Of a DNA stretch of 64,000 bases, positions 40,813 through 64,000 are shown in pieces. Source of the DNA: Candidatus Dojkabacteria bacterium (GTDB taxonomy: Bacteria; Patescibacteriota; Dojkabacteria; SC72; JAHDCA01); NCBI GenBank assembly GCA_030583845.1, contig CP129478.1, positions 215,175 to 279,174 on the forward strand, written 5' to 3'. How positions within the stretch are numbered: the stretch's first letter is position 1; the number at the start of each line of letters is the position of its first letter. The notes under the pieces are model-generated. The model worked only from the letters and a program-made list of their open reading frames with translations. It searched no databases and was not told the origin of the DNA. Made by a program: the position numbers and the translations under genes.

Positions 40813-40839
40813 ATTAGCTTGACCCGATCTTACACCAAA

Positions 40840-43404: not shown

Positions 43405-43438
43405 AGTCTACAAGCTTTAAACTTCAGCTAAGCATCAG

Positions 43439-44056: not shown

Positions 44057-44078
44057 TGCTATCTTCTATAAAGTTTAT

Positions 44079-45104
44079 CTACCCATTATACTCCCACACA
44101 GTCAGATCCTCCAATACCTCAATCCCCTTCTCCTGCGGATCCTTACAATCCACATCCACCACCGACAAGAAAGTTCTGTCCGCCGGCACCAAGTTCGTCG
44201 GCCACATCGAGAAGACTACTCCGTTATCAGGCGCCAACACATCTGCATTCCGCCCCTCTCCTACAACATACCTCCAACCTACCCTATCTCCTTTTGCCAC
44301 CCTATCCCCAAGCTTCACCTTTAGGTGGAGCACTGAGGCAACCGACGATCGGACACCGATTCGACGACTGACAACATACTGCTTCTCTGGCACCACGATC
44401 TTCCCTGGGAACATACTGTTGGCGGCTAGGATATTCTGGACTCCGCGAAGAGCCACCTGCTCTAGAGTTGGGTAGATTATCTGCGCACCGCCGATCTCCA
44501 CGGTGATTACCGGCACTTTATAAGTGTTGTTCATGGCGACGGCCATCATATTTAGATCGCCATCACGCTCAATTATGTACTCTGTACCAAAGTAGCGGGC
44601 AAGCTCGCGTGTGCACGATTCGCAATCATCCGCATCGTTCTTATGGATCCGCGCGTGTGGGAGGAACACCGCCCCATCCCCTGCATCATGGATATCGATC
44701 CCCATATTGCACTTCTTGAAGAAATTCTCGACTAGAGATGCTGCGACTACCTCAGAGATACTTTCTTCAATTTCATCTAGATTCTCACCGAACTGACGAT
44801 TTAGATCTTTGCCATCCTCTGGAAGGTTGCGCTCGCCCTTCTTGAAGCCAGTCGGATTTAATAATGGAAATATGTATAGCTCGCCTTTTAATTTGTCGAC
44901 GACATTTGCTTCACGAGCCCACTCGATCACTTTACTGACAGCATATACACCATTTACCTCGTCGCCATGTATCCCTGCGGTGATAAAAAGCTTGCTTCCA
45001 GGCTCTTTGCCCACAAGATGGTAGTACGGGATAGAGATTTCGATTTCATTAAATTTAATGATGTGATTCTTTAATTCCATTAACCAATAGACTATACTTG
45101 GCAA
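44079..45104 (-). CDS. Succinylglutamate desuccinylase/aspartoacylase (AstE/AspA) family zinc hydrolase
   Basis: FITAGIHGDEVNG motif (GxHGxE). Confidence 0.6.
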   Translation of the reverse strand: MPSIVYWLMELKNHIIKFNEIEISIPYYHLVGKEPGSKLFITAGIHGDEVNGVYAVSKVIEWAREANVVDKLKGELYIFPLLNPTGFKKGERNLPEDGKDLNRQFGENLDEIEESISEVVAASLVENFFKKCNMGIDIHDAGDGAVFLPHARIHKNDADDCESCTRELARYFGTEYIIERDGDLNMMAVAMNNTYKVPVITVEIGGAQIIYPTLEQVALRGVQNILAANSMFPGKIVVPEKQYVVSRRIGVRSSVASVLHLKVKLGDRVAKGDRVGWRYVVGEGRNADVLAPDNGVVFSMWPTNLVPADRTFLSVVDVDCKDPQEKGIEVLEDLTVWEYNG

Positions 45105-50890: not shown

Positions 50891-53800
50891 CTAAACCGTT
50901 ATCTTCTCGATAACAAGCTTCTTGCCAATTACATTGTACTGCTTAGTACGCTTTCTATAAATCCCTTTCGAGAGTGCAGTATCCCCGTCAACCACTCTAT
51001 AGGTTCTTGTAATTATATCGAGCTCATAATCCTTCGCATCCTTGGTGATAAATCGATATCGGCCCAGACTATCTGTCACTCTTCGAGCCACATATGTCTC
51101 TTTACCAACCTCCTTCAAGCCGATATCAATCCCGGCCAATGGGTTCCCATTCTTGTCTACGATCTGGCTATAAAGTGCCGAAGGGACAGCAGCTCGGCTT
51201 ATCAGGATCATAAGTAGTGCTGGCACATAGAGCAGTACAATCGCAAGGTTGAACAGTGAGAACGAGGCAATTAACACCCCGATCGATAGCACAAACCCAA
51301 GCGCAAAGACGCTCCATAGCAACACCTCAAATCCATTCTTAAGCTGGCTGTTAATCTTGGTCTCAAACCTGCTCACGACTGGGACCTTGCCAGAGTCTAG
51401 AGGGATCGAGAGGTCTAGCGACCTTCCTGCCTTAACCTCAATCGGCTCGCCGTGATAGACGTTTACCAACGGGTCATCAACCTTGCCAGTTATAGTCCTT
51501 GATGGGAATATATGATTATTCTTCTGAACTATAAAGCTGTATACACCATCTCTTAGGTCAACTTCGAATACACCAAATACATCTGTAACCGCGGTCGTGA
51601 TCAACCTCTTATTCTGATCATATGCACGAACCAGTGCCCTGGAGACTGGCTCCTTCGTGACAGAGTCATACACGACTCCGAACGGTACTCGTCTCTTCTT
51701 CACTGTGAAAATTGAGATGAAGCTTGAGAGAGTGCTCATAGCCAGATAGTATATGGTGATCGGGTTAAATCCGATCACGCTAGCTAAAGATGTAACCAAC
51801 GCGGTAGGCACAACTATCGCACCGATAGATGCGCTTGTCCTCGCTGTTGGAGCCGGCCGCCTACCGACCCAATTTGCGATATTGTCTAGGATCTCTGCAA
51901 CAGTCAATCTACCAGCCGTCCTATCGTAATTTATGGTCACAGTGGCACGATCACATGCCCCCTCCGTATCGCATATCTCGTATATAAGTGTCGTCGAGTA
52001 GTTTGCACCCTCTACAGCACTGTAAGTAAAAATGTTTCTATCGCTATCAATGTCGACTGCACCAATGCTTGGAGCCTCTATTATCACCAGCGAGTCCCTA
52101 TCCAGATTCCCATCTGGATCCCAGTCATTGTCTAATACATTTAGTACTATATTTCCGGTGCTCAACAGATAGCGATCGTCATTCGCCACTGGAGGATCTG
52201 GGAGCGGCAAAACTGTCATAAAGACAGAGGCTGTGGAGCAGCCAAGAGATATCCTATCACATATAGAGTATTGGAATCTGTCGGTACCGTTGAAGTTTGG
52301 TTCGGGCACATACTCAATTTCGCCACTACTTGGATCGATAAATGCACTTCCGCGAGACGGCTCGGTCGCGATCTCCATCGTGTCAATATTGAGAGCGGCA
52401 TTCGAGGTACCGGTAGTGTCCAAGTCGTTGCTCAATACATTAATTACAACCTCATTGTCCTCTTCTGTTTGCGCATTGTCATCGGTGAGGCCAGGCAAGC
52501 TGATGCCGACACCAACCTGTACAGTCGCATCGCTACAATTCCCGTCTGTATCGCAGATAGTGTAGTCAAAATAATCATATCCTACATACCCAGCGACGGC
52601 GTTATATCTGATAACTCCTCCTCCGAGAAGCTCAACTGTTGCTGCTGTGTTTACAGGTGTCACTGCTATCGCAAGTGAAGCAGGGTCAAGCGCACCCTCT
52701 GGATCGCTATCGTTAGAGAGCACATTTACAGAGCCGCTGCCTGCAACTGGCATCAATATCTCGTCGTCGACCGCAATCGGAGGCAAATTCTCTAATACAA
52801 GAGCTGTATCGCTTACATTTTGAGTTGAGGTCACTGGCGAGGTAGTATCAAGGTAGAAAGCCCGTACTGTGTCCCCACTACTGACTGCAAGCACACCGTT
52901 GTTGCTTTGACTATTACTTCCTGTATAGAGAACAGTACCAAATGTTGTCCTGAATATGCCACTATTTATTGCTGTCTCTGAAAGTAGAATATTTTCAATC
53001 TCGTTCGTCATCTCGTTTCGCAAGGTGATCGGAGCCCGGTCTATTGCAAGCGGGAACAGATTCGCATCGGGCTCGTTCAATGTAATTGTGAGACTATCTG
53101 TTGGCTCGATCTGTAGCTGAGCGATATCTATCGTTGCGAGTGTACCTGCATAATCGAGCTCATAGTGTGCACTGAACTCTGATGAATCCGACAACTGTGT
53201 ACAGCTAGGATTACTACACTCAGTTGCAACAGCAGTGACATACACATAGGATTCCCCCAAAGTTTGCCCAGGAAGTGTGACATTTATACCACTGCTTCCT
53301 TCTGAATTGGTTGTTACTTGAGTATTACCTAGGTACACTCTACCCTCTACATTATTATTTGCCTCAATTGCATCAGACACGTAGAACTCAACAAAGTAAT
53401 TGCTGTTTGGTTTAGAGTTTAGCCCCGCCAAGATCGTAAACTGATCAGTGACCAACGTTCTTGTTGCAGCGATAATCTGCGGAAAGTTCTGCCTCTCGTT
53501 TGCGCCGAGATCAGGATCCTGATAGTCGTTAGGGGTCACACCGTCGTTATCTAGGTCTATACCTATATCACCATTTAGGTAGATAGAATTTTGGCTAAAG
53601 GAAAGGTTTTGAGAGGTGGACTCTAGCGCTATGCCTTTAATTGTATTTGAGAAGATATTGTTGTTAAGGATAGAGATGTTGCTGTTAGTTGCATATACAC
53701 CGTAATTGTTAGCATATATTTCATTGCCCTGTATCAGAGAAGAGTTCGAGGTGCCGACGCTACGGATACCATGTATATTGCCGGCAATCAGATTGCCCGC

Positions 53801-56800
53801 GCCTGTCCCGCCACCAATCTCAATACCGTTTGCATCTACCGAGTAGATACCATTGACTGCTTGGTCTGGCTGAGGATTTGCATTAATAAGTGCTCCGATT
53901 AGGTTTCCTTGAATCCTACTCGTGCTTCCACAGGCACGTACCCTGATGCCGGATTCTCTATAGCCTGCAATCACATTTCTTACTTGTGGAGTTACACCAC
54001 CAACATAGAAGTTCGGCGAGCAACCAGATGGAGAGACCGCATCAATTCCAAAATCAACCTCGCTTGTCTCAAGGCCACTTATATCTGTACCAATAAAACT
54101 AGACTGAACTTGCCCAACATACCCACCGACAATAACGTTGGGAGGAATTGAAGCGTTAGGGCTCAATGCCAACCCTTGGATTGAGATCTGATTACTATCT
54201 GATGCATAGATACAGTATGTTTTCTCGCATGTAATCTGAACTACCGGTTGGCCATTTGGCACAGCAGGATAGACTGCTGTGCCTGCCCTATACCCGCTTT
54301 GGGTTGTAGCATTAAGCACTAGGTCATCTTTCACCTCCGGCAAGTCATAGCTGATACCATACACAGGGCTGTCTAGATAGTAGTGATTAATTGTTGGATT
54401 GATCCTCCACCATCTGATGTCTGGATCTGCATTGCCAGCAAGGCAGTTCACCTCTGTCGCTAGATTATTATAGGTTCCGCTTATTCCGTTATTTACGAAG
54501 GATAAACAGCCTGGGTCATTATTGGGGATATCAAATAGAACCACATCTTCACCTGCCAGAGCATTGGTCTCTGCTACGGCTGCCTCTAGCGTGCACTCTG
54601 GCTCGCTATCAGAGTTTAGCTGTCCTGTATAGCAGATACCATCACCAAGCAAGCTATCACTCAAACTACCTGTAGAATTAACCTCAATCAATCCAGCGCT
54701 ATCAGAAGATGCCAATACAATTGTAGGCGAAAACTCGGAAGTAGCAATCACATCCTGCCCCTCACCACAAGGCAATCCACTGCATTTTGTAGCAGTGGCA
54801 CTGACATAAAACTGCCCTTGGGGAAGTCCAGGCATTACGGAAGAATTGTTGAAGCTCGCATGACCAGACTCGTCTGTAGTTAAGTAGAAGTAATCTAAAT
54901 AGATCTCCCCTTCACCGTGCCCTGAAGGATCTGTCTGATCATTAAAATATAGTACCACCCTGTAGTCTGTATTCGGCTCTGAGTCCAAGACTCCCTCGAT
55001 TATATAAGTATCCTCAAATCTAGCCGCCAGTGACAGAATCGGGAAATTTTGGACTTCATTGGGTCCGCTATCAATATCCTCCGAGTCGTTAAGCGTGACG
55101 CCATCATTCCCGATGTCTATTCCGAGATCGCCACTATCGGTAATCATTGTACCTAGAGCAACGAACCTAGAAGTCGACCCTAAAATCTGTACGCCGTCAG
55201 TCCCTGCACCGGTGATGCTACTCCCAAGATCACCTATGAGACTGGAGTTATTTATAAGAATGCCTGCTAACCCAGTTTCGCTTATACTATTTGCCTCGAG
55301 TGTAACGTATGACGATTGTAGTTCAACTAAATTGATTCCATTCTCGCCAATATCGGTCAAGGTGTTGCCAGCAATTTCGATGTTTCCAGAGCTAGGGCTG
55401 TAGCTCTCATCGACTTTAATACCGTCGGCAACAGTATCACTTATCGTATTATCGAAGATTAACATCTCGGTCACACCTGGGGAATAGATTGAAGCATTAA
55501 TTCCAACCACACTATCCCTAATTTCATTGTTCTCCAGCTCTACATATGTGTCATCATATATATCACTACCCGTACCAACTCCTAAAAATATCCCTGTGTC
55601 GTTATTTTGGATAATGTTAGGCGCTATTTGAGATCCTACATCGTAATCCGCCCCAATCTCTGTATAGAGTGCCACGCCCACGACATTCCCCAAATCGTAC
55701 GTTTCGGTCGAGTCAGTTCCAATAAAGTTACCAAGAATCTGTGCTGACGTTGCCTGCATGTTGACCGCCTTATCTATGCCGCCTATGATATTCCCTTGGC
55801 CGGCCGATGTACCACCGATCTGTAGATTGGTAGAAAACAACGAGACGATGCCATCAGCTGTCGGCACAGAGTTGACTGCATCGACGCCAGGCACGACACC
55901 TATTAGATTACTCCTGACTGTGACGTTCTGAGTGGCCTCAAGATAGACAGCCTCATTGAGTGAGCCTCCTCCTATGACGTTGTTTGTAACCGAGGCACCA
56001 TTTACGCTGGTCATAGATATACCAGTGAATGTACCACCACCAAGACTATTCTCTCCATTTATATCTACACCTATATAGTTATTGCGAATCTGAGGGATCG
56101 TTGAGTCGCTGATAGATATTGCAGTTCCGCCATTTGCATTTATAAGGTTGCGGTCAGACAGCGATACACCACCGATCTGGACATTATCCGTCTCAGAAGC
56201 ATCTATAACTGTTGCTGCTGATGCAACTCCACCCCCTTGTTGTCCAGATGGATCTACCCCAAATATGTTGCACTTAATCTGTACATCATTCGCTTCTGAG
56301 ATCGAGATTGTTGTCGGTGATGCATAATCAAATACAAATCCACGAACAAGTGAGGAATCCAGCAATGCGTATGGTGCGTCGTCTGCCGGACTCAGAAGCT
56401 CAATTACAGGTCGCAAAGGGTTACACGAGGCTCCAGCCTGAGTTGTACCATCCATATGCACTACATCTGTGATGGCACTAGCACCATCTGGGCGCTGTAT
56501 ACTCCACCATTCGATATCAGGATCTGCCTGTGGATCGAGACAGTGAACCCTGGTACCAACTGTTACAGTGCCATCATCAGAATTATCCTGGTATGAGAGA
56601 CACCCTGTGTCACTCCTTGGGATGCTAAATATTGTTGTTTGAAAATCTTCCAGATTGTTTGAGTTAATTATAAACTGGTCTAATGAGCCTTGACCTGTCT
56701 CATTGCTGTTTGTAATTACCACAAAGCTAAATCCAAAATCAGCCCCAGACACCTCTCCGTCAGATAGTGAGATCTGGATTATATGCTCAGCGCTCTCCAG

Positions 56801-59800
56801 CCCTAGGCCAAACCCGTCTGCACTATCAGCAGAAATACCACCAAAACACTCACCTGCACTCTCAAGCACTATCGGATCGCCGTTATCATCCTGACACCAG
56901 GCTCCGACTCCACCATAAGTCTGGTCACCAAGTGAGATGCCCTCTAGATTAGCAAGTGACGTTACCGTAGACGAATCAACCACTAGCCACCCTATCTCTT
57001 CATTTGGTGGCGGGTAGTATGGAGACACCATCTCATAGTAGCCATTATTGTCAGTAACGGCACTAGTTATAAGTGAGTCAGCCACATCTGGAAGTCCGTT
57101 CCCATCGTCTAGATATAACGAAACCTCCACGCCACTTATATCATAACCTCCGGTTATATCTCCATCTCCGTTCTGATCTTCATAAATATTGCCAGATATC
57201 ACCTGACCATCCTCAGTTGGCGTCCCAAACTCAGATGTACTCAATCTGCTACTACATGAGGGATCGCCACAGACAGTTAATGTAGCTGTGACTATTTCGT
57301 ATTGTGGATCTAAGGTTGCAGTTATAGATATCGGGCTAACACCGCTAAAATTGTAGTTACCCGAAGAATTTGTAGTAACATTGCTGCTTCCGAGGTATTG
57401 CCATGCCTCATACGCCTCTCCCTCCTCACTACCGAAAAACTCTATTCGGTGAGTAGTATTTGCAGCCGCCCCTAGAACTTCGCCCCAGATATCCAACTGT
57501 GCTCCATCCTGGTTGTGATAGTACAATGTCGGACTAACCACAGGCGATACGGCAAGCCATTCGATAGTCTCGTCTGTTGGGATCGACCTAATGATATTTT
57601 GGGAGACTGTAACATCAGTCGCATCTTGCGGAATACGTATCCCACGGCCACTACCGCTCGTTGTACTATATTCAATAATGTTTGATTGAATCAGCACATC
57701 ATCAACAGTACCGGTGCTTGGCGGATACAGGTTTATAGAATTTCCACTCGTGGCAGGCCGGATGAAGTGATTGTTGCTGACGATTACATTTGACAGTGAG
57801 TTACCGTTTGTGAACGCAGACCTGATCAGGTTATTGTCGATAAGGAGAGAATCAATCGCTGATGCAGTGATATTTGATAAGTTAGAGTTCAGCTCAAGAT
57901 CACCAGTCACATCGGTTCCGATAAAGTTGCCCACGACCTCATTACCATCTTGATAAATCTGAACTGCTATGCCACCACCGCCAATGATCACATTGCATTC
58001 ACCGATACAATCATCCTCATAGCCGACGACGTTGGCACCTCCTACAAGGTTGTTTCCGGTTGTACCAATTCCAGAAAGGACCACACCCATAGTATCGTTA
58101 CTTCGATTTAACGTCCCACTCTTATCAGTACCGATATAATTGCCTTGGATAAGTGAATCTACCGCATTGTAAAGAAATATACCCTGACTGTTGCCGGAGA
58201 TTATATTTCGCTCTTCTGCTGTGTCTCCACCAACGATTAAGCCACTCAATACTGTAGGGTCACCACCAGTATCGTATTGGATACCTATACCATTCGGGCT
58301 AATGAAGGCAGTATCGCCGTTCGGATCAAGCCCAATTATATTGCACTGGATTACGCTGTTATCAGACCCGATCTCTAGCCGCACCTTGGCTGCACGCGAC
58401 CTGTTAAGCACGAAACCGCGAATTGAGGTGTCAGTGGCAGCCACTGTTAGTCCATAATCCCCAATCTGTAGATTGGTGAAATCTACTTCAACCTTAAGAT
58501 TGGAATCAACGCATGATGTCCCACTCTGAGTGGAAGCATCTAACGACGTAGGATCAAGGATAGCTGGGAGTGGTGTTGAAGGAGCGATGCTCCAATAATC
58601 ATCGGATGTGTCACCAGGGGTACCGTTAAGTGAATAGCCAGAGTCACTGGTAGGGAGCTCAAATGCTATCGAGTCACTCCCTTTTAGCAGATTTGATTCT
58701 TCTATCGCAGCTCTCAGAGTACATTCAGGTTGGTCTTCGCTATTCTGATTTCCAGTATTGCAGTGTCCATCGCCTGGATCTGTATCGATTGCATCACCGG
58801 TCGAGTTAACTATCAGATTGCCAGCATCTGAGACAGCCGGGCTTAGCTCAGATGTATATAAGCTTCCAGTACAGTTAGGTGAATCGCAAAGTGTAGCCGT
58901 CGATGTAAGATATCTCTCACCTACCGCCAAGGTAACCCCAGTAAGCGTGACACCAGGAGTTGTGAAGCTTGTATCACCAGATGAGTTTGTGGTAACTACT
59001 GTTGAGCCTATATATCTACCTGCACCTACCCAGCCGGTTATTGAATCATCGACGAAGAACTCCAATCTGTAACTGCTCGTAGGTGCAGAGTTTAGAGTCC
59101 CTGATACAGTAACTTCCTGACTAACACTATCATATGTATACCCACTAAGTAGCGGATAGTTTTGTAAGTAGTTTGGCCCGACATCTGTATCCTCGGAATC
59201 ATTTGCTGATATGCCATCATTGTTTAGATCAAGATTCAGCACAGAGTTTGAATAGAGAAGATTTTGCGACAGGACGCATTCAGTGTAAGGGTCAGGTCCG
59301 CTACCATTTACGACAAGACCTCGCTGGTTATCTCTAGAGGTATTACGGAAGACATAGCAGCTGTCCGCATTGCCGATCGTAATGCCCGGGCCGCTACTAT
59401 GATTATATACTTCATTATCTATTACTGAGAGTGGCTCAGTTCTTCCTGATGCAGTACTTATTCCTGCGAGAGTGTTCCCATAAATAGTATTACCCAACGG
59501 AGTCGCAAGAGCATCGGGATCTGTACCAATTATTTCTCCGTCGCTATGGTTAATGTGTATACCACTTCCATCATTATTGCGAATTATATTTTTCTGATAT
59601 ATGTTTCCACCACTGCTATCAGAAAATATTCCTCCACTGGCTAAGCCACCTGATCCGGAATCTTCAATGATATTGCACTTTATTTTACTGTAATACCCAC
59701 CATTATGGATCGAAATCCCATGCGATTGCATTTCTGTAATATGTATCCCATATATTTCAACATATTCCCCCTCGATCTCGAATCCAGTTCCACTACCTCC

Positions 59801-62800
59801 AAACCCAGACCCATCGAGAATTATCGGTAGGTTGTAGCTATTACAGCTATTATCGATAATTCCTGCTGGGAGTCCGTTGATTACCAGTATCTCTACAATT
59901 GATGGCAAGGCGCTTCCAGGTAAGATTGTCCAGGTGTCGTCTGTTCCATCGCCAGGAGTACCATTATTTGAATATCCACTATCAGATGTTGGAATGCTAA
60001 AATTTATAAAGTCACCCCCATAAAAAGCATTCGACTCCTCGATCGCAGCTCTAAGTGTACACTCGGGATCTGAGTCGCTGTTGGTGGCACCTGTGAAGCA
60101 TACTCCATCACCAGCATCATCGTCTCCGGCATCGTTAGTCGAATTTACTAGGAATGAAGGTAGAAACACATCACTAAATTCCGATGTTTCTCCATACATG
60201 CCACTCCCTGCGTCAGGGACAAAGGTAGTTGTCGCAGTAATATAGTTTGAATACAGATCACATGGGAATGTATACTGCTGTGGCCCCACACCGAGATGGC
60301 TCAGCGATATTTCTGTACAAGCCAAGCTCTCACCCTCCGACCTACCATTACTATCAATCGAGTTATTTGAATAGATGTTTATGGTATATGTGCCGTCGTA
60401 ATAACCCACTGAATCATAGGGAACATCTAGAGATACAGTAATCTCACCATCTTCGTAGGATAATATCTCTGGTGTATTTAACATATGGTTTCCACCTTCT
60501 TCATCAGTGTCGAGGGAGTCGTTTGGTGTCGCACCTCGGTTTACCTCTTCTGAATCAATCACGGCGTACAGATCGATCCCTTCACCCTCATTATTTGCTA
60601 GGACATTCTCCTCAAGCATGTTCGTCTGACTATTTTCTGGGTAAATATCTGGGTCATAAGCGACCACTGCAATTCCATCTTCGCCATTTTCCTGAATGTA
60701 ATTCGACCCTACAATATTCAGACTGGTGTTATCTGTCGGGTGACCAATAAATACGCCATTGCCTTCATTATTCGAAATCGTATTACTCATAATACGGCTA
60801 TCGGTACTTTCGAGTCTGACTCCGTCACCTCCGTTCCATCTGATGTTGTTGTACTGAGCGTAGACATATGGATAGTAGGTTCCAGTGCTGTCATACGCTA
60901 GGACCAACCCATGTCCGCCGTTGCCGGCGGGAGCAGCATTGATATCTTCACCAATAATATTGTTTGAGAGCCTCTGCCCTGGCCAAGACATATAGTAGCC
61001 CCCAACAATCTCTATACCATTACCTGTGTTGCCTGATATCATATTTTGGCCAGCTTCACCTATTCTCGCATACCCATATCCTGCAACCTCTCTCGTAAGC
61101 AGGATACCGTTCTCTCCATTTGGGATAACTGTCTCGGCATTCTCACCCAGACCAATCACATTTCCGCGGATGTCATAGTCAGCATTATCGACAATGTTGA
61201 TTCCATTTCCATCATTGCCACTCAGAACATTATCAGAGATATGCCCTGTGGATGAACTTGAGTTTTGAATCTCCAGACCATCGCCGCTATTGGGAATAGC
61301 TGTCGTACCTGTAAGATTTGTACCTATGTTATTACAGGTGATAGTTGCGTTGTTGACGTTATCTACAAGGATCCCATCTGCGCCGCTATTATAAATTGCG
61401 AGACCCTTAATTGTCGTATTGGGAGCCGAGATACTGAATGTTGTAAACCGACCATCACCATCTACAGCCACCTTTAAGTCACGGGGTGAGCCACCCAACA
61501 TATCCCCGCAATTGGCTTCAAATACTGTTGTACCATCAATGACTACCGAATCGGTAATCTTCGGGAGATCGTCAGTCAGAACAATTGGGCTTACACCCAA
61601 AACGGTGAAGTGGATATTATCCGATCCTGCCAAGGCATTTGTCTCCTGTATAGCAGCTCTCAGTGTACAGTCATTTATATGCGTATTTGGGTGGGTATCA
61701 CAAAAACCGTCACCGGGAATGAAGTCATCCTCCTCAAAACTAACGTCGACGGTAAAAGTAGAGTTCTCGAGCGGCGTAGAGTAATTGGTAATATAACGCT
61801 TCTGTTCATCTGGCTTGTTTATGACTAACCTTGCAGTTACATATCCACCAGGCTCTGCAGGCGTTACGAGCTCGAAGCTATAGCTACTCTCACCTGTCTC
61901 AGGATTTGTATATGAAACCAGCGGGCTTTGACCAATCAAGGCCCCAATGTTGGTAGCAGGAGTTTTAATATCCTGATCCTCAGTATAGTTTATCTCAACA
62001 GTAGCATCTTCTACATCTTGTTCTGTTAGAGATATGCCCTCGGGCAGAAAGACATTGCCAGTAATTACCTTATTTCCACCTACCCACGCCGCGCTCATGA
62101 CTCGCACCTCAATATTCTCAAGAAGCTCGGCCACCTCCATGGGCTGCTCAACAGGAGGATCCTCTGCAATTGGCTCCTCCTCCACCCCAAGGGTAATAAC
62201 TCCAACCTCATAGTTTATTGCAAGTGATTCAAAGTAGATCTCTTTCTCGCCATCAGACTTCATAAAAGCCTTCACGTATACCGCATCATAGCTTTCTGAG
62301 AATGCTGCGAGACTGCCGTTCACCTCCTGCACTGTGTTTGAGGTAAGAAATCCTGCAGGAGTAAGCACCCACTCTGTGCCGTCATGGTAGTACCAGTCAG
62401 TGCCGTTTGGCGATAGCTGGTAATACACACCCCAAGTTCGAGCATCATCAAACTGTGAAATATCTCCGGTGCTTGTCGCATCGTTATTATGGCTACTTCT
62501 CTCGTAGAAGCTAACCAGCTCCGAGTACTCGACCTTGGTAACAAAAAGAATCTCGGCCGGCTGATCACTATAAAGTGCTGCCGGATCTGCAGGCTCCTGT
62601 ACAACCACTTCTACATTCTCATCGTCAGCCGCATCACCTTCATCCACAACTGGGACATCGCCAGTCTCAGCAATATCTTCAATCGGTGTCTCCACGCTTT
62701 CATCATCTACTTCCGGAGCTGTCTCAGAATCGTCTGTAGATGCACCCAGTACATACTCCATATGCCCCCTATAAGGGCTATTCATTAAATCTTGTGCGGC

Positions 62801-63667
62801 AGCAACTTGCTCGTTTTGCGAGAGATAGATCTTCCCTTCAACTACATCTACTTCCTGTTCAGAATACGACGCATCATTATAGGTCAATATTATCTGCCTC
62901 TCCCGATCGGCAAAGACACTATCAAGTCTCGAGTTAAGGATTGTGACACCGCCAGCTATGTAGATCAGCACCTGCATCAGCACAAAGAACGCAGAGATGA
63001 AGAATGTTGCGAATGTGGGGTAATACCTTACTCGATACTTCCTTAAGTCTTCTCGGTTCTGTACTTCGTTTTCATCTTTCCAGCGCCCGAGGAACAGGTT
63101 AATCAGCAGCAGCCATGAGCTAAGCTGCACCTGAGATGCAAGCCACGCTACTGCATATCCAAATTTTTCAAATCGGTTCTTTGAAGAATCTCTTTTCTTG
63201 ATGTATTGGTCAGCTTTATCGGTGCTGCTCAATGTCTTGTGTGCAGCATTAAGCAGGATGCGGTCAATCTTCGTCTTAGATAAGTTTTCTTTATTTACCC
63301 CTGTGGCTCCAACGAGCGTTTTCTCTATGAAGTCTTTGTCAGATTTGTTGAGGTTGAGAAAGCCCTCAGAAAGCTGATCTTTACCCTCAATAAGGAGGAC
63401 TTTAAGCTTCTGGCCATGGTATCGCGGGTTGCTAACTATAAACTGCGCAAGCTCGGTACCGCTATACTTAGGAAGTGTGGTGTCTAGGATGATAATGTCA
63501 GGGAGAACAACCATCAGGTAGCCTAATCCTTCCAAACCGTTATCCGATGTGAAAATTTTTACATTTCGGTGTGCAAAGTGCTTTAGAAGCAACCCAAGCA
63601 CTTGGCGTACAACGAAATCGTCGTCGATTATGACTATTTTCAACTGATGATCTGTATCCTTGTTCAT
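50891..63667 (-). CDS. Giant 4258-aa protein: N-terminal response-regulator receiver (REC) domain, hydrophobic segments, repeated CSLREA-type / parallel-beta-helix modules, cadherin/VCBS-like repeats, C-terminal TM segments and two CarboxypepD_reg-like domains
   Basis: One uninterrupted ORF. REC: KIVIIDDDFVVRQVLGLLLK...PDIIILDTTLPKYSGTELAQFIV. Repeated D-P-E-C-T-L-R-A-A-I-E-E-x-N motifs, at least 4 copies. NxIxGN beta-helix repeats. VDDE.../VLSNDxDxDG cadherin-like repeats x3. Confidence 0.85.
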   Translation of the reverse strand: MNKDTDHQLKIVIIDDDFVVRQVLGLLLKHFAHRNVKIFTSDNGLEGLGYLMVVLPDIIILDTTLPKYSGTELAQFIVSNPRYHGQKLKVLLIEGKDQLSEGFLNLNKSDKDFIEKTLVGATGVNKENLSKTKIDRILLNAAHKTLSSTDKADQYIKKRDSSKNRFEKFGYAVAWLASQVQLSSWLLLINLFLGRWKDENEVQNREDLRKYRVRYYPTFATFFISAFFVLMQVLIYIAGGVTILNSRLDSVFADRERQIILTYNDASYSEQEVDVVEGKIYLSQNEQVAAAQDLMNSPYRGHMEYVLGASTDDSETAPEVDDESVETPIEDIAETGDVPVVDEGDAADDENVEVVVQEPADPAALYSDQPAEILFVTKVEYSELVSFYERSSHNNDATSTGDISQFDDARTWGVYYQLSPNGTDWYYHDGTEWVLTPAGFLTSNTVQEVNGSLAAFSESYDAVYVKAFMKSDGEKEIYFESLAINYEVGVITLGVEEEPIAEDPPVEQPMEVAELLENIEVRVMSAAWVGGNKVITGNVFLPEGISLTEQDVEDATVEINYTEDQDIKTPATNIGALIGQSPLVSYTNPETGESSYSFELVTPAEPGGYVTARLVINKPDEQKRYITNYSTPLENSTFTVDVSFEEDDFIPGDGFCDTHPNTHINDCTLRAAIQETNALAGSDNIHFTVLGVSPIVLTDDLPKITDSVVIDGTTVFEANCGDMLGGSPRDLKVAVDGDGRFTTFSISAPNTTIKGLAIYNSGADGILVDNVNNATITCNNIGTNLTGTTAIPNSGDGLEIQNSSSSTGHISDNVLSGNDGNGINIVDNADYDIRGNVIGLGENAETVIPNGENGILLTREVAGYGYARIGEAGQNMISGNTGNGIEIVGGYYMSWPGQRLSNNIIGEDINAAPAGNGGHGLVLAYDSTGTYYPYVYAQYNNIRWNGGDGVRLESTDSRIMSNTISNNEGNGVFIGHPTDNTSLNIVGSNYIQENGEDGIAVVAYDPDIYPENSQTNMLEENVLANNEGEGIDLYAVIDSEEVNRGATPNDSLDTDEEGGNHMLNTPEILSYEDGEITVSLDVPYDSVGYYDGTYTINIYSNNSIDSNGRSEGESLACTEISLSHLGVGPQQYTFPCDLYSNYITATTTFVPDAGSGMYGETSEFSDVFLPSFLVNSTNDAGDDDAGDGVCFTGATNSDSDPECTLRAAIEESNAFYGGDFINFSIPTSDSGYSNNGTPGDGTDDTWTILPGSALPSIVEILVINGLPAGIIDNSCNSYNLPIILDGSGFGGSGTGFEIEGEYVEIYGIHITEMQSHGISIHNGGYYSKIKCNIIEDSGSGGLASGGIFSDSSGGNIYQKNIIRNNDGSGIHINHSDGEIIGTDPDALATPLGNTIYGNTLAGISTASGRTEPLSVIDNEVYNHSSGPGITIGNADSCYVFRNTSRDNQRGLVVNGSGPDPYTECVLSQNLLYSNSVLNLDLNNDGISANDSEDTDVGPNYLQNYPLLSGYTYDSVSQEVTVSGTLNSAPTSSYRLEFFVDDSITGWVGAGRYIGSTVVTTNSSGDTSFTTPGVTLTGVTLAVGERYLTSTATLCDSPNCTGSLYTSELSPAVSDAGNLIVNSTGDAIDTDPGDGHCNTGNQNSEDQPECTLRAAIEESNLLKGSDSIAFELPTSDSGYSLNGTPGDTSDDYWSIAPSTPLPAILDPTSLDASTQSGTSCVDSNLKVEVDFTNLQIGDYGLTVAATDTSIRGFVLNRSRAAKVRLEIGSDNSVIQCNIIGLDPNGDTAFISPNGIGIQYDTGGDPTVLSGLIVGGDTAEERNIISGNSQGIFLYNAVDSLIQGNYIGTDKSGTLNRSNDTMGVVLSGIGTTGNNLVGGANVVGYEDDCIGECNVIIGGGGIAVQIYQDGNEVVGNFIGTDVTGDLELNSNLSNITASAIDSLLIDNNLIRSAFTNGNSLSNVIVSNNHFIRPATSGNSINLYPPSTGTVDDVLIQSNIIEYSTTSGSGRGIRIPQDATDVTVSQNIIRSIPTDETIEWLAVSPVVSPTLYYHNQDGAQLDIWGEVLGAAANTTHRIEFFGSEEGEAYEAWQYLGSSNVTTNSSGNYNFSGVSPISITATLDPQYEIVTATLTVCGDPSCSSRLSTSEFGTPTEDGQVISGNIYEDQNGDGDITGGYDISGVEVSLYLDDGNGLPDVADSLITSAVTDNNGYYEMVSPYYPPPNEEIGWLVVDSSTVTSLANLEGISLGDQTYGGVGAWCQDDNGDPIVLESAGECFGGISADSADGFGLGLESAEHIIQISLSDGEVSGADFGFSFVVITNSNETGQGSLDQFIINSNNLEDFQTTIFSIPRSDTGCLSYQDNSDDGTVTVGTRVHCLDPQADPDIEWWSIQRPDGASAITDVVHMDGTTQAGASCNPLRPVIELLSPADDAPYALLDSSLVRGFVFDYASPTTISISEANDVQIKCNIFGVDPSGQQGGGVASAATVIDASETDNVQIGGVSLSDRNLINANGGTAISISDSTIPQIRNNYIGVDINGENSLGGGTFTGISMTSVNGASVTNNVIGGGSLNEAVYLEATQNVTVRSNLIGVVPGVDAVNSVPTADGIVSLFSTNLQIGGTSAGQGNIIGGIDKAVNMQATSAQILGNFIGTDSTETYDLGNVVGVALYTEIGADYDVGSQIAPNIIQNNDTGIFLGVGTGSDIYDDTYVELENNEIRDSVVGINASIYSPGVTEMLIFDNTISDTVADGIKVDESYSPSSGNIEIAGNTLTDIGENGINLVELQSSYVTLEANSISETGLAGILINNSSLIGDLGSSITGAGTDGVQILGSTSRFVALGTMITDSGDLGIDIGNDGVTLNDSEDIDSGPNEVQNFPILSLAARFEDTYIIEGVLDSEPNTDYRVVLYFNDQTDPSGHGEGEIYLDYFYLTTDESGHASFNNSSVMPGLPQGQFYVSATATKCSGLPCGEGQDVIATSEFSPTIVLASSDSAGLIEVNSTGSLSDSLLGDGICYTGQLNSDSEPECTLEAAVAETNALAGEDVVLFDIPNNDPGCLSFVNNGISGTYNNLATEVNCLAGNADPDIRWWRINPTINHYYLDSPVYGISYDLPEVKDDLVLNATTQSGYRAGTAVYPAVPNGQPVVQITCEKTYCIYASDSNQISIQGLALSPNASIPPNVIVGGYVGQVQSSFIGTDISGLETSEVDFGIDAVSPSGCSPNFYVGGVTPQVRNVIAGYRESGIRVRACGSTSRIQGNLIGALINANPQPDQAVNGIYSVDANGIEIGGGTGAGNLIAGNIHGIRSVGTSNSSLIQGNEIYANNYGVYATNSNISILNNNIFSNTIKGIALESTSQNLSFSQNSIYLNGDIGIDLDNDGVTPNDYQDPDLGANERQNFPQIIAATRTLVTDQFTILAGLNSKPNSNYFVEFYVSDAIEANNNVEGRVYLGNTQVTTNSEGSSGINVTLPGQTLGESYVYVTAVATECSNPSCTQLSDSSEFSAHYELDYAGTLATIDIAQLQIEPTDSLTITLNEPDANLFPLAIDRAPITLRNEMTNEIENILLSETAINSGIFRTTFGTVLYTGSNSQSNNGVLAVSSGDTVRAFYLDTTSPVTSTQNVSDTALVLENLPPIAVDDEILMPVAGSGSVNVLSNDSDPEGALDPASLAIAVTPVNTAATVELLGGGVIRYNAVAGYVGYDYFDYTICDTDGNCSDATVQVGVGISLPGLTDDNAQTEEDNEVVINVLSNDLDTTGTSNAALNIDTMEIATEPSRGSAFIDPSSGEIEYVPEPNFNGTDRFQYSICDRISLGCSTASVFMTVLPLPDPPVANDDRYLLSTGNIVLNVLDNDWDPDGNLDRDSLVIIEAPSIGAVDIDSDRNIFTYSAVEGANYSTTLIYEICDTEGACDRATVTINYDRTAGRLTVAEILDNIANWVGRRPAPTARTSASIGAIVVPTALVTSLASVIGFNPITIYYLAMSTLSSFISIFTVKKRRVPFGVVYDSVTKEPVSRALVRAYDQNKRLITTAVTDVFGVFEVDLRDGVYSFIVQKNNHIFPSRTITGKVDDPLVNVYHGEPIEVKAGRSLDLSIPLDSGKVPVVSRFETKINSQLKNGFEVLLWSVFALGFVLSIGVLIASFSLFNLAIVLLYVPALLMILISRAAVPSALYSQIVDKNGNPLAGIDIGLKEVGKETYVARRVTDSLGRYRFITKDAKDYELDIITRTYRVVDGDTALSKGIYRKRTKQYNVIGKKLVIEKITV

Positions 63668-64000
63668 TGGGCAGGTTCAAATACAAGTTTCTCTTTTCAT
63701 ACTAGTATTTTTGCAATACGCTGGCAAGTTTTGGAGAAGATTAAGAGGAGATGAAAAGTGGCTAACCTGTGGAGAAAAATGAGGATTCCATCGAAAAGAG
63801 TTGATCATGCATTCTACAGGCTTGGATTATTGAGGCGCTTTTGAGATCAGTTGGATCTTGAGGGCGCCGCTTCGCGGCATTCACGAGTACCTGCCAATCG
63901 CTCCGCTCTTGGGGTACTTACGGAACAGGGATGGACGCTCGGTCGCTTTGCTCCCTCTCTAGATAGACGAGAAACAGATTGTGCTCGTCTATACGCACCC

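What the first reader, a model, noticed from the sequence alone, without database searches (positions are those of the whole stretch)
50891..63667. A response-regulator receiver domain fused to a 4,000-aa membrane-anchored beta-helix / CSLREA / cadherin-like giant protein
The 12.8-kb ORF is uninterrupted, so the fusion is not an artefact of the ORF call.

Domain order read from the translation:
- Receiver domain. It opens with MNKDTDHQLKIVIIDDDFVVRQVLGLLLKHF...PDIIILDTTLPKYSGTELAQFIV...KVLLIEG. This has the acidic pair after beta1, the phospho-acceptor Asp at the end of beta3 (IIILD), the beta4 and the beta5 Lys (FIEKTL).
- Two hydrophobic segments at about aa 170-235.
- At least four modules that each start with a Cys-containing motif (GDGxCxTG...DPECTLRAAIEExNA...IxFxIP). 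This is the pattern of the CSLREA-type N-terminal domain of right-handed parallel beta-helix proteins. Each is followed by hundreds of residues of Gly/Asn-rich NxIxGN PbH1-like repeats and an NDSEDxDxGPNxxQNxP segment.
- Three cadherin/VCBS-like Ig repeats (AVDDEILMP...VLSNDSDPEG; NVLSNDLD; NVLDNDWDPDGN).
- A C-terminal region with further hydrophobic segments and two transthyretin-like CarboxypepD_reg-type domains (VTDVFGVFEVDLRDGVYSF; VTDSLGRYRFITKDAKDYEL).

Receiver domains normally head cytoplasmic response regulators. I am not aware of a described architecture in which one is covalently joined to a giant adhesin-like ectodomain. If real, it suggests phosphorylation-dependent control of a cell-surface or attachment apparatus, or an inside-out signalling tether. 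No histidine kinase is present in the window.
Basis: partly seen in the sequence, partly recalled or inferred. Interest (0 to 1): 0.85.

Follow-up and report, generated by a model that had tools for sequence, protein, structure and literature searches.

The report
Receiver domain on giant surface protein
A tiny-genome Dojkabacteria bacterium encodes a 4,258-residue surface protein that appears to be pinned in the membrane at both ends, with a two-component receiver domain as its inner N-terminal end; relatives have the same design either fused or split into two adjacent genes, which points to an undescribed link between phospho-signalling and a cell-surface adhesin.

Summary
The ORF 50891-63667 (-) is uninterrupted and encodes 4,258 aa. 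Pfam and a fold search confirm an N-terminal receiver (REC) domain. After it come a membrane anchor, five beta-helix modules (four with CSLREA caps), three Big_9/cadherin repeats, and a C-terminal module of hydrophobic segments with two CarboxypepD_reg domains.

The fusion is not an artefact. The identical protein is NCBI WKZ31380.1, from a 1.04-Mb Dojkabacteria contig. The REC plus membrane module defines at least 179 clusters (50% identity) in public data, and half of the 153 sequences examined are 1,000-4,258 aa long.

New findings:
- In relatives the protein is split into two adjacent genes. One encodes REC-TM-jelly-roll. The other encodes signal peptide-CSLREA adhesin-C-terminal module. 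The window protein is their colinear fusion, joined at about aa 636.
- Charge, cysteine and signal-peptide evidence place REC and both CarboxypepD_reg domains in the cytoplasm and aa 254-3939 outside.
- The conserved lysine is K108, not K116. The Thr/Ser switch residue is lost and helix alpha4 is truncated. The Asp-Asp-Asp-Lys pocket is 84-98% conserved.
- No histidine kinase lies nearby.

The function, phospho-dependent coupling between the cytoplasm and a double-anchored adhesin, is inferred and not shown. I rate this a new variant of known kinds.

The parts
50891..63667 (-). Whole gene: 4,258-aa REC-anchored giant surface protein (NCBI WKZ31380.1)
   Evidence: Single ORF. Identical to P0010/WKZ31380.1, from a 1,036,382-bp Candidatus Dojkabacteria contig. 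No DNA tandem repeats in the gene.
63699..63727 (-). Promoter-like site, TTGCCA-17-TAGTAT, about 30 nt upstream of the ATG
   Evidence: Consensus scan found 1 site against 0.6 expected. This is weak evidence only.
63302..63643 (-). Receiver (REC) domain, aa 9-122. Acidic pair D15/D16, phospho-acceptor D62, Lys K108. No Thr/Ser at position 94, and alpha4 is missing.
   Evidence: PF00072 at 41.2 bits. PDB phmmer hits are all receiver domains. AlphaFold model has pLDDT 80-91 over the domain. All 50 listed Foldseek hits are response regulators or REC-containing hybrid kinases, probability 1.00. Family conservation.
63089..63271 (-). Helical hairpin, aa 133-161 and 165-193. The second helix ('TM1') is marginally hydrophobic, with a conserved face W175/Q179/S183.
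   Evidence: AlphaFold helices with pLDDT 88-93. Hydrophobicity sum is +4.9 here and the family median is +1.8, so it is probably not membrane-spanning on its own. Conservation.
63017..63088 (-). Conserved K/R-rich juxtamembrane loop, aa 194-217 (N200, Q203, D207, YRVRYYPT)
   Evidence: Family mean is 5.2 K+R in 24 residues. Motif conservation.
62936..63016 (-). TM2, aa 218-244: the strong membrane anchor, acting as a signal-anchor
   Evidence: Hydrophobicity sum is -0.6 here; the family median is -1.6 and 89% of members are below 0.
62909..62935 (-). Conserved post-TM motif N-S-R-L-D-S-V-F-A253. Either an interfacial helix or a signal-peptidase-like -3/-1 site.
   Evidence: A253 is Ala in 107 of 110 aligned members, position -3 is V/I/S/A/L/T, and conservation collapses after position 253.
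62183..62908 (-). Membrane-proximal extracellular beta jelly-roll, aa 254-495, interrupted by an acidic disordered insert at about aa 300-365. Contains the family-wide YQLSPxGxxWYY motif.
61760..62110 (-). Second extracellular domain of the 'gene-1' part, aa about 520-636. It ends at the fusion junction ...STPLEN|STFTVDV...
   Evidence: Colinear with the 623-aa L011 gene-1 product over aa 9-583, 30% identity. The junction matches the gene-1 C-terminus joined to the mature gene-2 N-terminus.
60143..61750 (-). Beta-helix module 1, aa 640-1175 (CSLREA cap at aa 667)
58793..60142 (-). Beta-helix module 2, aa 1176-1625 (CSLREA cap at 1203, NDSED segment at 1489)
57218..58792 (-). Beta-helix-like module 3, aa 1626-2150 (CSLREA cap at 1649)
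   Evidence: Motif. Similar to modules 1, 2 and 5, at 26-42% identity. No Pfam Beta_helix hit of its own.
56696..57217 (-). Spacer with an SdrD_B-like beta-sandwich, aa 2151-2324
   Evidence: Sub-threshold SdrD_B hit at aa 2160-2212, 23.7 bits against a cutoff of 29.7.
54674..56695 (-). Beta-helix module 4, aa 2325-2998 (degenerate cap GQGSLDQFIINSN, NDSED segment at 2860)
53123..54673 (-). Beta-helix module 5, aa 2999-3515 (CSLREA cap at 3025, NDYQD segment at 3380)
51893..52789 (-). Three Big_9 / cadherin-like (tandem-95) repeats, aa 3627-3925
   Evidence: Big_9 at 137.7 bits with 3 stretches, plus Cadherin_4 and Cadherin_5. NF012211 at 99.2 bits.
51704..51850 (-). C-terminal anchor region, aa 3940-3988. 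Two moderately hydrophobic segments, followed by KKRR.
   Evidence: The family mean is 4.2 K+R in the 15 residues after this region.
51368..51703 (-). CarboxypepD_reg-like domain 1, aa 3989-4100. Inferred to be cytoplasmic.
   Evidence: PF13620. K+R is 15.3%, there is no Cys, and both flanks are K/R-rich.
51185..51331 (-). Strong TM hairpin, aa 4113-4161 (TM5/TM6), joined by a short uncharged loop
   Evidence: Hydrophobicity sums are -2.3 and -1.5. The loop carries about 0.2 K+R on average.
50894..51184 (-). CarboxypepD_reg-like domain 2, aa 4162-4258. Inferred to be cytoplasmic.
   Evidence: PF13620 and PF13715. K+R is 19.2% and there is no Cys.
49536..50855 (-). Serpin gene 36 nt downstream on the same strand. 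Possibly co-transcribed, but membership of the system is not established.
   Evidence: PF00079 at 320 bits. No terminator-like site in the gap between the genes. Not seen next to relatives.

Best explanation
The gene encodes a real, lineage-specific (Candidatus Dojkabacteria, CPR/Patescibacteria) giant surface protein that most likely has both ends in the cytoplasm.

**Shown, or strongly supported by sequence.**
- An N-terminal receiver domain keeps the phosphorylation pocket (D15, D16, D62, K108). It lacks the Thr/Ser switch residue and most of alpha4.
- A helical hairpin and one strong transmembrane helix (aa 218-244) link it to about 3,700 extracellular residues. These comprise a CBM-like jelly-roll, five CSLREA/parallel beta-helix modules and three cadherin-like Ig repeats.
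- The chain then re-enters the membrane. It ends in a conserved module: hydrophobic segments, a K/R cluster, CarboxypepD_reg domain 1, a TM hairpin, and CarboxypepD_reg domain 2.
- The protein is a colinear fusion of two units. In relatives these are adjacent genes. Gene 1 encodes REC-TM-jelly-roll-Ig. Gene 2 encodes signal peptide-CSLREA adhesin-C-terminal module.

**Inferred.**
- REC and the two CarboxypepD_reg tail domains share the cytoplasm and work together. This rests on a Rosetta-stone argument plus their shared composition.
- The ectodomain is an adhesin or host-contact fibre.

**Most likely mechanism (inference).** Phosphorylation of D62 comes from a kinase encoded elsewhere, from a phosphotransfer protein, or from acetyl phosphate. 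It changes the packing or oligomerisation of the REC-hairpin-TM module against the C-terminal membrane/tail module. That would switch the presentation, clustering or tension of the double-anchored fibre (inside-out signalling). The same linkage could run in reverse, reporting ectodomain engagement by altering the REC phosphorylation state (outside-in signalling).
For: **The fusion is real.**
- The ORF is intact.
- The identical protein is in NCBI, from a 1.04-Mb contig.
- Sixteen genome loci and 153 representative proteins carry the same REC plus TM module. Full-length ORFs of 900-2,455 aa are read directly in independent MAGs.
- P0002 aligns over 99% of aa 1-648 and continues into a CSLREA beta-helix.

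**REC identity.**
- Pfam scores above the cutoff.
- The PDB sequence search returned receiver domains, and all 50 listed Foldseek hits are response regulators or REC-containing hybrid kinases.
- Across 168 sequences, D15 is conserved at 89%, D16 at 84%, D62 at 98% and K108 at 96%.

**Topology.**
- TM2 is strongly hydrophobic and TM1 is marginal.
- K+R is enriched before TM1, in the TM1-TM2 loop, after TM4, before TM5 and after TM6. It is depleted after TM2.
- REC, CPD1 and CPD2 have K+R of 15-19% and no Cys. Residues 256-3925 have K+R of 2.7-4.1%, a net charge of about -400 and all 46 Cys, mostly in close pairs. The same K+R dichotomy holds across the family, 13.4% against 4.1%.
- Split relatives put a classical signal peptide on the adhesin half: L011 gene 2, the L016 574-aa protein, and P0156-P0158.

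**Two linked modules.**
- In L011 the two genes are joined as TAAATG. L016 has them in the reverse order. L018 has them within 2 kb.
- The C-terminal module is present in 30 of 76 long members, and another C-terminal TM in 20 more.

**Adhesin-like ectodomain.**
Against: - No phosphodonor was identified. There is no HisKA/HATPase_c in the window. None is recorded within 10 kb of four relatives. A crude motif scan of 131,000 aa of neighbouring ORFs found none.
- The receiver lacks the conserved Thr/Ser and most of alpha4. It may therefore not signal like a classical receiver.
- Topology rests on hydrophobicity and charge rules that I implemented myself, not on a trained predictor. Two marginal hydrophobic segments (aa 165-193, and one of 3940-3988) are unexplained.
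- Physical REC-CPD interaction is untested.
- About a third of long relatives show no C-terminal anchor.
- The adhesin role is inferred from domain types only.
Confidence: 0.55

Rival explanations
1. Pseudo-receiver. The N-terminal domain is a phosphorylation-independent structural, dimerisation or docking domain. It might tether the adhesin to a cytoplasmic partner or set its localisation. No two-component signalling would be involved.
For: - The Thr/Ser switch residue is not conserved, and alpha4 is truncated or absent.
- No kinase lies in the window or near relatives.
- There are several paralogues per small genome, which would need many phosphodonor interactions.
Against: D15, D16, D62 and K108 are kept at 84-98% across 168 sequences that share 50% identity or less. 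The DTTLPKYSG loop after the acceptor Asp is nearly invariant. Such conservation of the metal and phosphoryl pocket is hard to explain without phosphoryl chemistry, or at least Mg2+ or ligand binding there.
Confidence: 0.22
2. Cleavable leader. TM2 plus the conserved ...S-[VI]-F-A253 motif acts as an internal signal peptide cut by signal peptidase I. After export, the REC-TM fragment would be separated from the adhesin, which would stay anchored only by its C-terminal module. REC would then act on export, or as an independent membrane protein, as the 230-290-aa stand-alone family members do.
For: - A253 is Ala in 107 of 110 aligned members. Position -3 is V/I/S/A/L/T, the n-region is K/R-rich, and conservation collapses right after 253.
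- Stand-alone REC-TM proteins end at about this point.
- Split relatives use an ordinary signal peptide for the adhesin half.
Against: - The hydrophobic core is about 27 residues long (aa 218-244), which is typical of an anchor and not of a cleaved signal peptide.
- The putative c-region is 9 residues long and carries conserved Arg and Glu.
- The motif fits an amphipathic interfacial helix equally well.
- Cleavage would give no selective reason for the jelly-roll to be so consistently attached to REC-TM.
Confidence: 0.15
3. Artefact. The REC-coding 5' end is joined to the adhesin gene by mis-assembly, or by a missed frameshift or stop codon.
For: - Relatives exist in which the two halves are separate genes.
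- One locus, L013, has a single in-frame stop between them.
- GC3 differs somewhat along the gene, 0.51 at both ends against 0.39-0.45 in the middle.
Against: - The reading frame is continuous.
- The junction lies at about aa 636, not at the REC boundary. It reproduces the gene-1 C-terminus joined to the mature gene-2 N-terminus without the signal peptide.
- Independent fused homologues exist: P0002 and P0009, and L003, L004, L005, L009 and L012.
- The source is a 1.04-Mb contig.
- Both termini share the same GC3.
- There are no repeats in the DNA that could mislead an assembler.
Confidence: 0.03
4. All hydrophobic segments span the membrane as three hairpins. In that case the whole 3,700-aa middle region would be cytoplasmic and merely tethered to the membrane.
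For: Counting every hydrophobic segment gives 2 + 2 + 2. This satisfies the positive-inside rule at the C-terminal module.
Against: - Homologous adhesin halves carry cleavable signal peptides.
- The middle region contains 46 Cys, mostly in close pairs, together with CSLREA, cadherin and Big_9 domains. Its K+R is 3% against 15-19% in REC and the CPD domains.
- The TM1-TM2 loop is the most K/R-rich segment.
- TM1 is not hydrophobic enough in this protein.
Confidence: 0.05

Closest known systems
CheY-like receiver domains of two-component response regulators (Pfam PF00072)
   Same: - Same (beta/alpha)-type fold.
- Acidic pair after beta1, acceptor Asp at the end of beta3, and Lys after beta5.
- N-terminal position in the protein.
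   Different: - No Thr/Ser at the end of beta4, and alpha4 is truncated.
- It is followed by a helical hairpin and a membrane anchor, not by a soluble DNA-binding or enzymatic output domain.
- The 'output' is a transmembrane, extracellular protein.
- No adjacent kinase.
CSLREA-capped right-handed parallel beta-helix surface proteins and tandem-95 / cadherin-like repeat proteins (TIGR04214, PF13229, NF012211)
   Same: The ectodomain is built from exactly these modules, which is why NCBI names the protein 'tandem-95 repeat protein'.
   Different: As far as I know, such proteins normally start with a signal peptide, as the split L011 gene 2 does. Here the signal peptide is replaced by a REC-TM-jelly-roll unit. 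The C-terminus carries a TM/CarboxypepD_reg tail module.
LapD-LapG-LapA inside-out control of a giant adhesin in Pseudomonas (own knowledge; not tested here)
   Same: Same concept: a cytoplasmic signalling domain on a membrane protein governs whether a giant repeat adhesin is displayed at the surface.
   Different: - LapD senses c-di-GMP through degenerate GGDEF/EAL domains. It acts through a periplasmic protease on a T1SS-exported RTX adhesin in a diderm.
- Here the signalling domain is a receiver. It is covalently or genetically linked to the adhesin. No protease or T1SS is evident, and the organism has a sortase and FemAB-type genes, which suggests a monoderm envelope.
ToxR-like bitopic regulators, and rare membrane-anchored response-regulator outputs (MetOD3; Galperin et al. 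2018, PMC5847659)
   Same: N-terminal cytoplasmic signalling domain, a single membrane pass, and an extracytoplasmic C-terminal domain. MetOD3 shows that receiver domains with membrane-anchored outputs do exist in narrow lineages.
   Different: - ToxR has a DNA-binding domain and no receiver.
[quoted passage not shown]
- No giant ectodomain or second cytoplasmic tail module is reported for either.
Giant multidomain proteins of Omnitrophota and Actinobacteria (West-Roberts et al. 2023 preprint, 10.1101/2023.11.21.568195)
   Same: Very long bacterial proteins. The preprint's domain lists include CheY-like receiver domains and adhesin domains.
   Different: Different phyla and architectures. The passages retrieved from that paper list receiver domains only among shared domains and describe no N-terminal REC with a TM anchor, no CSLREA modules and no CarboxypepD_reg tail.

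Membership tests
Response regulator receiver domain (REC, PF00072) | Profile match above the curated threshold | tested here: met
   35.3 bits on the whole protein and 41.2 bits on aa 1-260, against a cutoff of 30.2.
Response regulator receiver domain (REC, PF00072) | CheY-like alpha/beta fold | tested here: met
   The AlphaFold model shows beta1-alpha1-beta2-alpha2-beta3-alpha3-beta4-beta5-alpha5. All 50 listed Foldseek PDB hits are response regulators or REC-containing hybrid kinases, probability 1.00. Alpha4 is missing.
Response regulator receiver domain (REC, PF00072) | Phosphorylation pocket: acidic pair, acceptor Asp and conserved Lys | tested here: met
   D15, D16, D62 and K108 are conserved at 89%, 84%, 98% and 96% in 168 family members.
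Response regulator receiver domain (REC, PF00072) | Conserved Thr/Ser at the end of beta4 (switch residue) | tested here: not met
   Glu94 in this protein. The family has H, T, S, N, Y or V at this position.
Response regulator receiver domain (REC, PF00072) | Actual phosphotransfer from a histidine kinase, an Hpt protein or a small-molecule donor | not testable with these tools
   No kinase in the window or near relatives. The rest of the 1.04-Mb genome could not be read.
CSLREA-domain / parallel beta-helix surface proteins (TIGR04214 + PF13229) | CSLREA N-terminal cap motif followed by PbH1-type beta-helix repeats | tested here: met
   TIGR04214 at 44.6 bits against a cutoff of 25. Four motifs (aa 667, 1203, 1649, 3025). 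Beta_helix at 101 bits with 6 stretches.
CSLREA-domain / parallel beta-helix surface proteins (TIGR04214 + PF13229) | Export by an N-terminal signal peptide | tested here: not met
   The window protein has REC at its N-terminus and an internal anchor instead. The split homologue, L011 gene 2, does have a signal peptide.
Tandem-95 repeat protein (NF012211) / Big_9-cadherin-like repeats | Repeats of about 95 aa matching the NCBIfam and Pfam models above the cutoff | tested here: met
   NF012211 at 99.2 bits against a cutoff of 90, with 3 stretches. Big_9 at 137.7 bits.
Dojkabacteria REC-TM family (unnamed; defined here) | REC with DTTLPKYSG, a helical hairpin with a W-Q-S face, YRVRYYPT, a strong TM, and the ...FA motif | tested here: met
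   The window protein scores 344.6 bits against the A1 profile, third best of 1.84 billion representatives.
Dojkabacteria REC-TM family (unnamed; defined here) | C-terminal module: hydrophobic region, K/R cluster, CarboxypepD_reg, 2 TM, CarboxypepD_reg | tested here: met
   377 bits against the module HMM, but the window protein is one of the three sequences that HMM was built from, so its own score is not independent. The module is shared by 30 of 76 long members and by REC-less neighbours in L011, L016 and L018.
Sortase-anchored (LPXTG) surface proteins | LPXTG-type motif, then a hydrophobic stretch and a short basic tail at the extreme C-terminus | tested here: not met
   No LPXTG motif before aa 3940, and 270 residues with two folded domains follow the K/R cluster. 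A sortase gene does exist at 10015-10839.

The most novel reading that the evidence does not exclude
Dojkabacteria possess a previously undescribed transmembrane device. A cytoplasmic receiver domain and a pair of cytoplasmic transthyretin-like tail domains clamp the two ends of a giant extracellular beta-helix/cadherin arch. Phosphorylation inside the cell would change adhesion to a host or substrate. Conversely, pulling on the arch would change the phosphorylation state of the receiver. This would be a prokaryotic, integrin-like, bidirectional adhesion-signalling machine, and a new output class for two-component signalling.
Probability: 0.3. Interest if true: 0.85.

Novelty: new variant of a known kind. 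Interest (0 to 1): 0.66.

Why it matters
Receiver domains are textbook cytoplasmic switches that drive transcription factors or enzymes. A large family in which the receiver is the cytoplasmic foot of a giant surface protein would add a new class of response-regulator output. Here the partner is either fused to the receiver or encoded next to it.

It would also give a first handle on how ultra-small CPR bacteria regulate attachment. These bacteria are thought to depend on contact with other cells, and they have very few regulators.

The split and fused gene pairs, and the conserved cytoplasmic tail module, give concrete and testable partners.

In practical terms, current annotation ('tandem-95 repeat protein', 'response regulator') hides the architecture.

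Tried and rejected
- **Exact-sequence contig look-up for the window protein.** Nothing on record. The source was later identified through a cluster look-up.
- **Word-indexed homology search with the C-terminal 333 aa.** No hits. An alignment of the module found only five, small, REC-less, signal-peptide proteins. The distribution of the module outside the family therefore remains poorly sampled.
- **K116 as the beta5 Lys.** I rejected it in favour of K108, on family conservation and the AlphaFold strand order.
- **Both N-terminal hydrophobic helices as membrane-spanning.** Rejected on charge, hydrophobicity and signal-peptide evidence.
- **Sortase anchoring of the C-terminus.** Rejected, because there is no LPXTG motif and 270 aa follow the basic cluster.
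- **Kinase hunt.** I used Pfam on 40 window ORFs, precomputed Pfam calls around four relatives, and a crude H-box/N-box/G-box regular-expression scan over 21 loci. All were negative. The regular-expression scan is insensitive.
- **Rfam on the GC-rich 63650-64000 stretch.** No match.
- **Literature searches.** I looked for membrane-anchored response regulators, Dojkabacteria regulators and CPR giant surface proteins. No description of this architecture turned up.

Full report
**1. The observation**

The minus-strand ORF 50891..63667 is uninterrupted and encodes 4,258 aa. Only three sense codons lie upstream of the ATG in the stop-to-stop frame. A promoter-like TTGCCA-17-TAGTAT site sits about 30 nt upstream. 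The gene has no DNA tandem repeats, and its GC content (0.456) matches the window (0.459).

- Response_reg scores 35.3 bits on the whole protein and 41.2 bits on aa 1-260, against a cutoff of 30.2.
- CSLREA_Nterm scores 44.6 bits against a cutoff of 25. Motifs lie at aa 667, 1203, 1649 and 3025.
- Beta_helix matches in six stretches, with NosD as well.
- NDSEDxDxGPN segments lie at aa 1489, 2860 and 3380.
- Big_9, Cadherin_4/5 and the tandem-95 repeat model each match; Big_9, Cadherin_4 and tandem-95 give three stretches.
- CarboxypepD_reg matches twice at the C-terminus.

A fifth beta-helix module (aa 2325-2998) has a degenerate cap. The five modules are only 25-42% identical to each other, so they are old duplications and not an assembly artefact.

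**2. Where the window comes from**

The protein is identical to NCBI WKZ31380.1, 'MAG: tandem-95 repeat protein [Candidatus Dojkabacteria bacterium]'. It lies on a 1,036,382-bp contig.

The window itself is ordinary chromosome. It carries DnaB, RF-1, a Mur ligase, two FemAB genes, ribonucleotide reductase, HtrA, SSB, S6, YchF, CCA-adding enzyme and a sortase. None of the 40 other ORFs scanned has HisKA or HATPase_c. These cover every separate gene-sized ORF of 120 aa or more; the unscanned ORFs in that size range overlap longer ORFs.

**3. The receiver domain**

All sequence hits in the PDB are receiver domains. An AlphaFold model of aa 1-273 was built from a 10-sequence family alignment (mean pLDDT 78, and 80-91 over REC). 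It gives beta1-alpha1-beta2-alpha2-beta3-alpha3-beta4-loop-beta5-alpha5. All 50 listed Foldseek PDB hits are response regulators or REC-containing hybrid kinases, each at probability 1.00.

Across 168 family sequences:
- D15 is Asp in 89% of members, with Glu in a further 8%.
- D16 is conserved in 84%.
- D62 is conserved in 98%.
- K108 is conserved in 96%.
- The Thr/Ser position (94) varies (H, T, S, N, Y, V) and is Glu in this protein.

The distance from the end of beta4 to the conserved Lys is 14 residues here and 17-18 in most relatives, against 22 in CheY (own knowledge). This agrees with the model, which lacks alpha4. The domain is therefore a receiver with an intact phosphorylation pocket and an altered alpha4-beta5 signalling face.

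**4. It is a family, not a one-off**

A word-indexed search with aa 1-648 found nine relatives. A scan of one genome per species found 16 loci. Most carry Dojkabacteria labels. Others carry submitter labels of Saccharibacteria, Doudnabacteria, Synechococcus or simply 'uncultured bacterium', which I did not verify.

Reading the ORFs directly gives full-length proteins of 900, 1,498, 1,908, 2,319, 2,319, 2,446 and 2,455 aa. Several more run off their contigs.

An exhaustive profile search of 1.84 billion representatives found 179 clusters at E <= 1e-30 that cover the whole REC-hairpin-TM module. Of the 153 sequences examined (the nine first hits plus the 144 further listed representatives), 76 are at least 1,000 aa long and 37 are at least 2,000 aa. 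The window protein is the longest.

The conserved N-terminal unit consists of:
- REC with a near-invariant DTTLPKYSG loop.
- A helical hairpin with a conserved W175/Q179/S183 face.
- A K/R-rich loop ending in YRVRYYPT.
- A strongly hydrophobic helix.
- The motif N-[TS]-R-[IV]-E-S-[VI]-F-A.

**5. The key new result: fused here, split elsewhere**

I built an HMM of the C-terminal module from three sequences, including the window protein. The module consists of a hydrophobic region, a K/R cluster with the GIVYD motif, CarboxypepD_reg, two TM helices, and a second CarboxypepD_reg. The HMM finds the module at the C-terminus of 30 of the 76 long members. Another 20 have some other C-terminal TM helix.

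The module also occurs in REC-less proteins encoded next to REC-TM genes:
- **L011** (closed genome OZ246402.1). The 623-aa REC-TM-jelly-roll-Ig gene ends in TAA, and ATG follows immediately. The next gene encodes 1,821 aa. It starts with a classical signal peptide (…FIATSSIHA|ATFTVDS…) and continues with a CSLREA cap, a beta-helix and the C-terminal module.
- **L016.** A 574-aa protein with a signal peptide and the module precedes a 242-aa REC-TM gene.
- **L018.** This locus is syntenic with window positions 34-45 kb. A 2,473-aa protein carrying the module lies 2 kb from the REC-TM paralogue P0001.

The window protein is colinear with L011 gene 1 over aa 9-583. At aa 636/637 it reads …NYSTPLEN|STFTVDV…CTLRAAIQETN. 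That corresponds to the gene-1 C-terminus (…LSKPLGN*) joined to the mature gene-2 N-terminus, without the signal peptide.

The giant is therefore a natural fusion of a two-gene unit. By Rosetta-stone logic, the REC-TM unit and the adhesin with its tail module work together.

**6. Topology**

This section is inference from several concordant lines of evidence.

- **Export.** The adhesin half is exported by a signal peptide in the split forms, and in small REC-less relatives P0156-P0158.
- **Cysteines.** All 46 Cys lie between aa 656 and 3905, mostly in close pairs.
- **Composition.** Residues 256-3925 have K+R of 2.7-4.1% and a net charge of about -400. REC plus linker, CPD1 and CPD2 have K+R of 15.5%, 15.3% and 19.2%, with no Cys. 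The same K+R split holds across the family, 13.4% against 4.1%.
- **Juxtamembrane charge.** In family averages, K+R is high before TM1 (4.0), in the TM1-TM2 loop (5.2), after TM4 (4.2), before TM5 (4.2) and after TM6 (3.0). It is low after TM2 (1.5, with 2.5 acidic residues) and in the TM5-TM6 loop (0.2).
- **Hydrophobicity.** I used a Hessa-type scale recalled from memory, without position weighting. The sums are TM1 +4.9 (family median +1.8), TM2 -0.6 (family -1.6), TM3 +2.6, TM4 +2.2, TM5 -2.3 and TM6 -1.5.

The consistent reading runs as follows:
1. REC is inside the cell.
2. Helix 165-193 is interfacial or re-entrant.
3. TM2 crosses the membrane.
4. Residues 254-3939 are outside.
5. There is one crossing within aa 3940-3988.
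6. CPD1 is inside.
7. TM5/TM6 form a hairpin.
8. CPD2 is inside.

The protein would then be a roughly 3,700-residue extracellular arch pinned at both ends.

**7. Mechanism**

Shown by sequence: the architecture, the family, the split/fused relationship, and the conservation of the phospho-pocket.

Inferred: the receiver is phosphorylated at D62 by a donor encoded elsewhere. No kinase is recorded within 10 kb of four relatives, and a crude motif scan of 131,000 aa of neighbouring ORFs found none. Phosphorylation would change how the REC-hairpin-TM unit packs or oligomerises against the C-terminal TM/CarboxypepD_reg unit. That would modulate display, clustering or tension of the beta-helix/cadherin fibre. 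The same linkage could work in the reverse direction.

The rivals are set out separately:
- A phosphorylation-independent pseudo-receiver. I rate this plausible.
- A signal-peptidase-cleaved leader at A253, for which the motif is suggestive.
- An assembly artefact, which is essentially excluded.
- A wholly cytoplasmic giant, which I rate unlikely.

**8. Comparison with what is known, and novelty**

The parts all belong to known domain families: REC, CSLREA/beta-helix, tandem-95/cadherin-like repeats and CarboxypepD_reg. Database names for members are 'response regulator', 'CheY-like chemotaxis protein' and 'tandem-95 repeat protein'.

I found no paper that describes a receiver domain anchoring a giant ectodomain. 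The nearest mentions are:
- A rare membrane-anchored archaeal response-regulator output, MetOD3 (PMC5847659).
- A remark that giant proteins of Actinobacteria and Omnitrophota can contain CheY-like receiver domains (10.1101/2023.11.21.568195).

Functionally, the closest analogue I know of is the LapD/LapG/LapA inside-out control of a giant adhesin. This comes from my own knowledge and was not tested here. Its signalling domain, envelope type and mechanism all differ.

I classify the finding as a new variant of known kinds. It is a lineage-specific class of response regulator whose output is a transmembrane adhesin, with a conserved cytoplasmic tail partner.

Noticed in passing
window 49536-50855 (-): A full-length serpin gene (PF00079, 320 bits) lies 36 nt downstream of the giant gene on the same strand. 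No terminator-like site separates them, so it may be co-transcribed. It is not found next to the relatives examined.
   Followed up: partly
window 63850-64000: The last 150 bases of the window, upstream of the giant gene, are 57% GC, against 46% for the window and 39% for the adjacent spacer. By eye they look like a structured RNA cut by the window edge. Rfam found no match at E <= 0.01.
   Followed up: partly
L011 9896-17230 (OZ246402.1): The REC-TM-jelly-roll gene (623 aa) and the signal-peptide-CSLREA-adhesin gene (1,821 aa) are in the same frame and are joined as TAA-ATG. P0004, from another sample, also ends at 623 aa, so the split appears to be real.
   Followed up: yes
L013 5370-9581: A 351-aa REC-TM ORF is separated by a single in-frame stop codon from an ORF of more than 1,050 aa that has no signal peptide. 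This could be a pseudogene, a sequencing error or read-through. I did not resolve it.
   Followed up: no
L016 2299-9013: Four consecutive genes encode signal-peptide proteins of 310-360 aa; the 352- and 359-aa products are clearly paralogous. They precede the 574-aa protein carrying the C-terminal module and the 242-aa REC-TM gene. The arrangement looks like an operon for a surface structure.
   Followed up: no
window 34119-45104 vs L018 8420-20277: Gene order is conserved with a JGI contig: AstE/AspA-like, MgtC-DUF4010, CCA-adding enzyme, Exo_endo_phos, beta-CASP, IF-2B and PYNP. In L018, REC-TM paralogues (416 aa and 251 aa) sit at two positions where the window has other genes (a 205-aa ORF plus a DHH protein, and a transglutaminase-like protein). 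REC-TM genes therefore appear to come and go within syntenic blocks.
   Followed up: partly
L020 10001-12144; L009 6549-13367: REC-TM family genes occur as tandem paralogues: 441 aa followed by 271 aa in L020, and 1,498 aa followed by a second one running off the contig in L009. Some MAGs carry family genes on more than one contig.
   Followed up: partly
window 10015-10839 (-), 13829-17409 (+): A sortase gene, and a Mur ligase followed by two FemAB-family genes. These are consistent with a Gram-positive-like (monoderm) wall with interpeptide bridges. The giant protein has no LPXTG signal.
   Followed up: partly
window 50891-63667: GC3 is 0.51-0.52 in the parts inferred to be cytoplasmic (aa 1-255 and 3940-4258). 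It is 0.39-0.45 in the extracellular part. This compositional difference parallels the K/R and Cys dichotomy.
   Followed up: no
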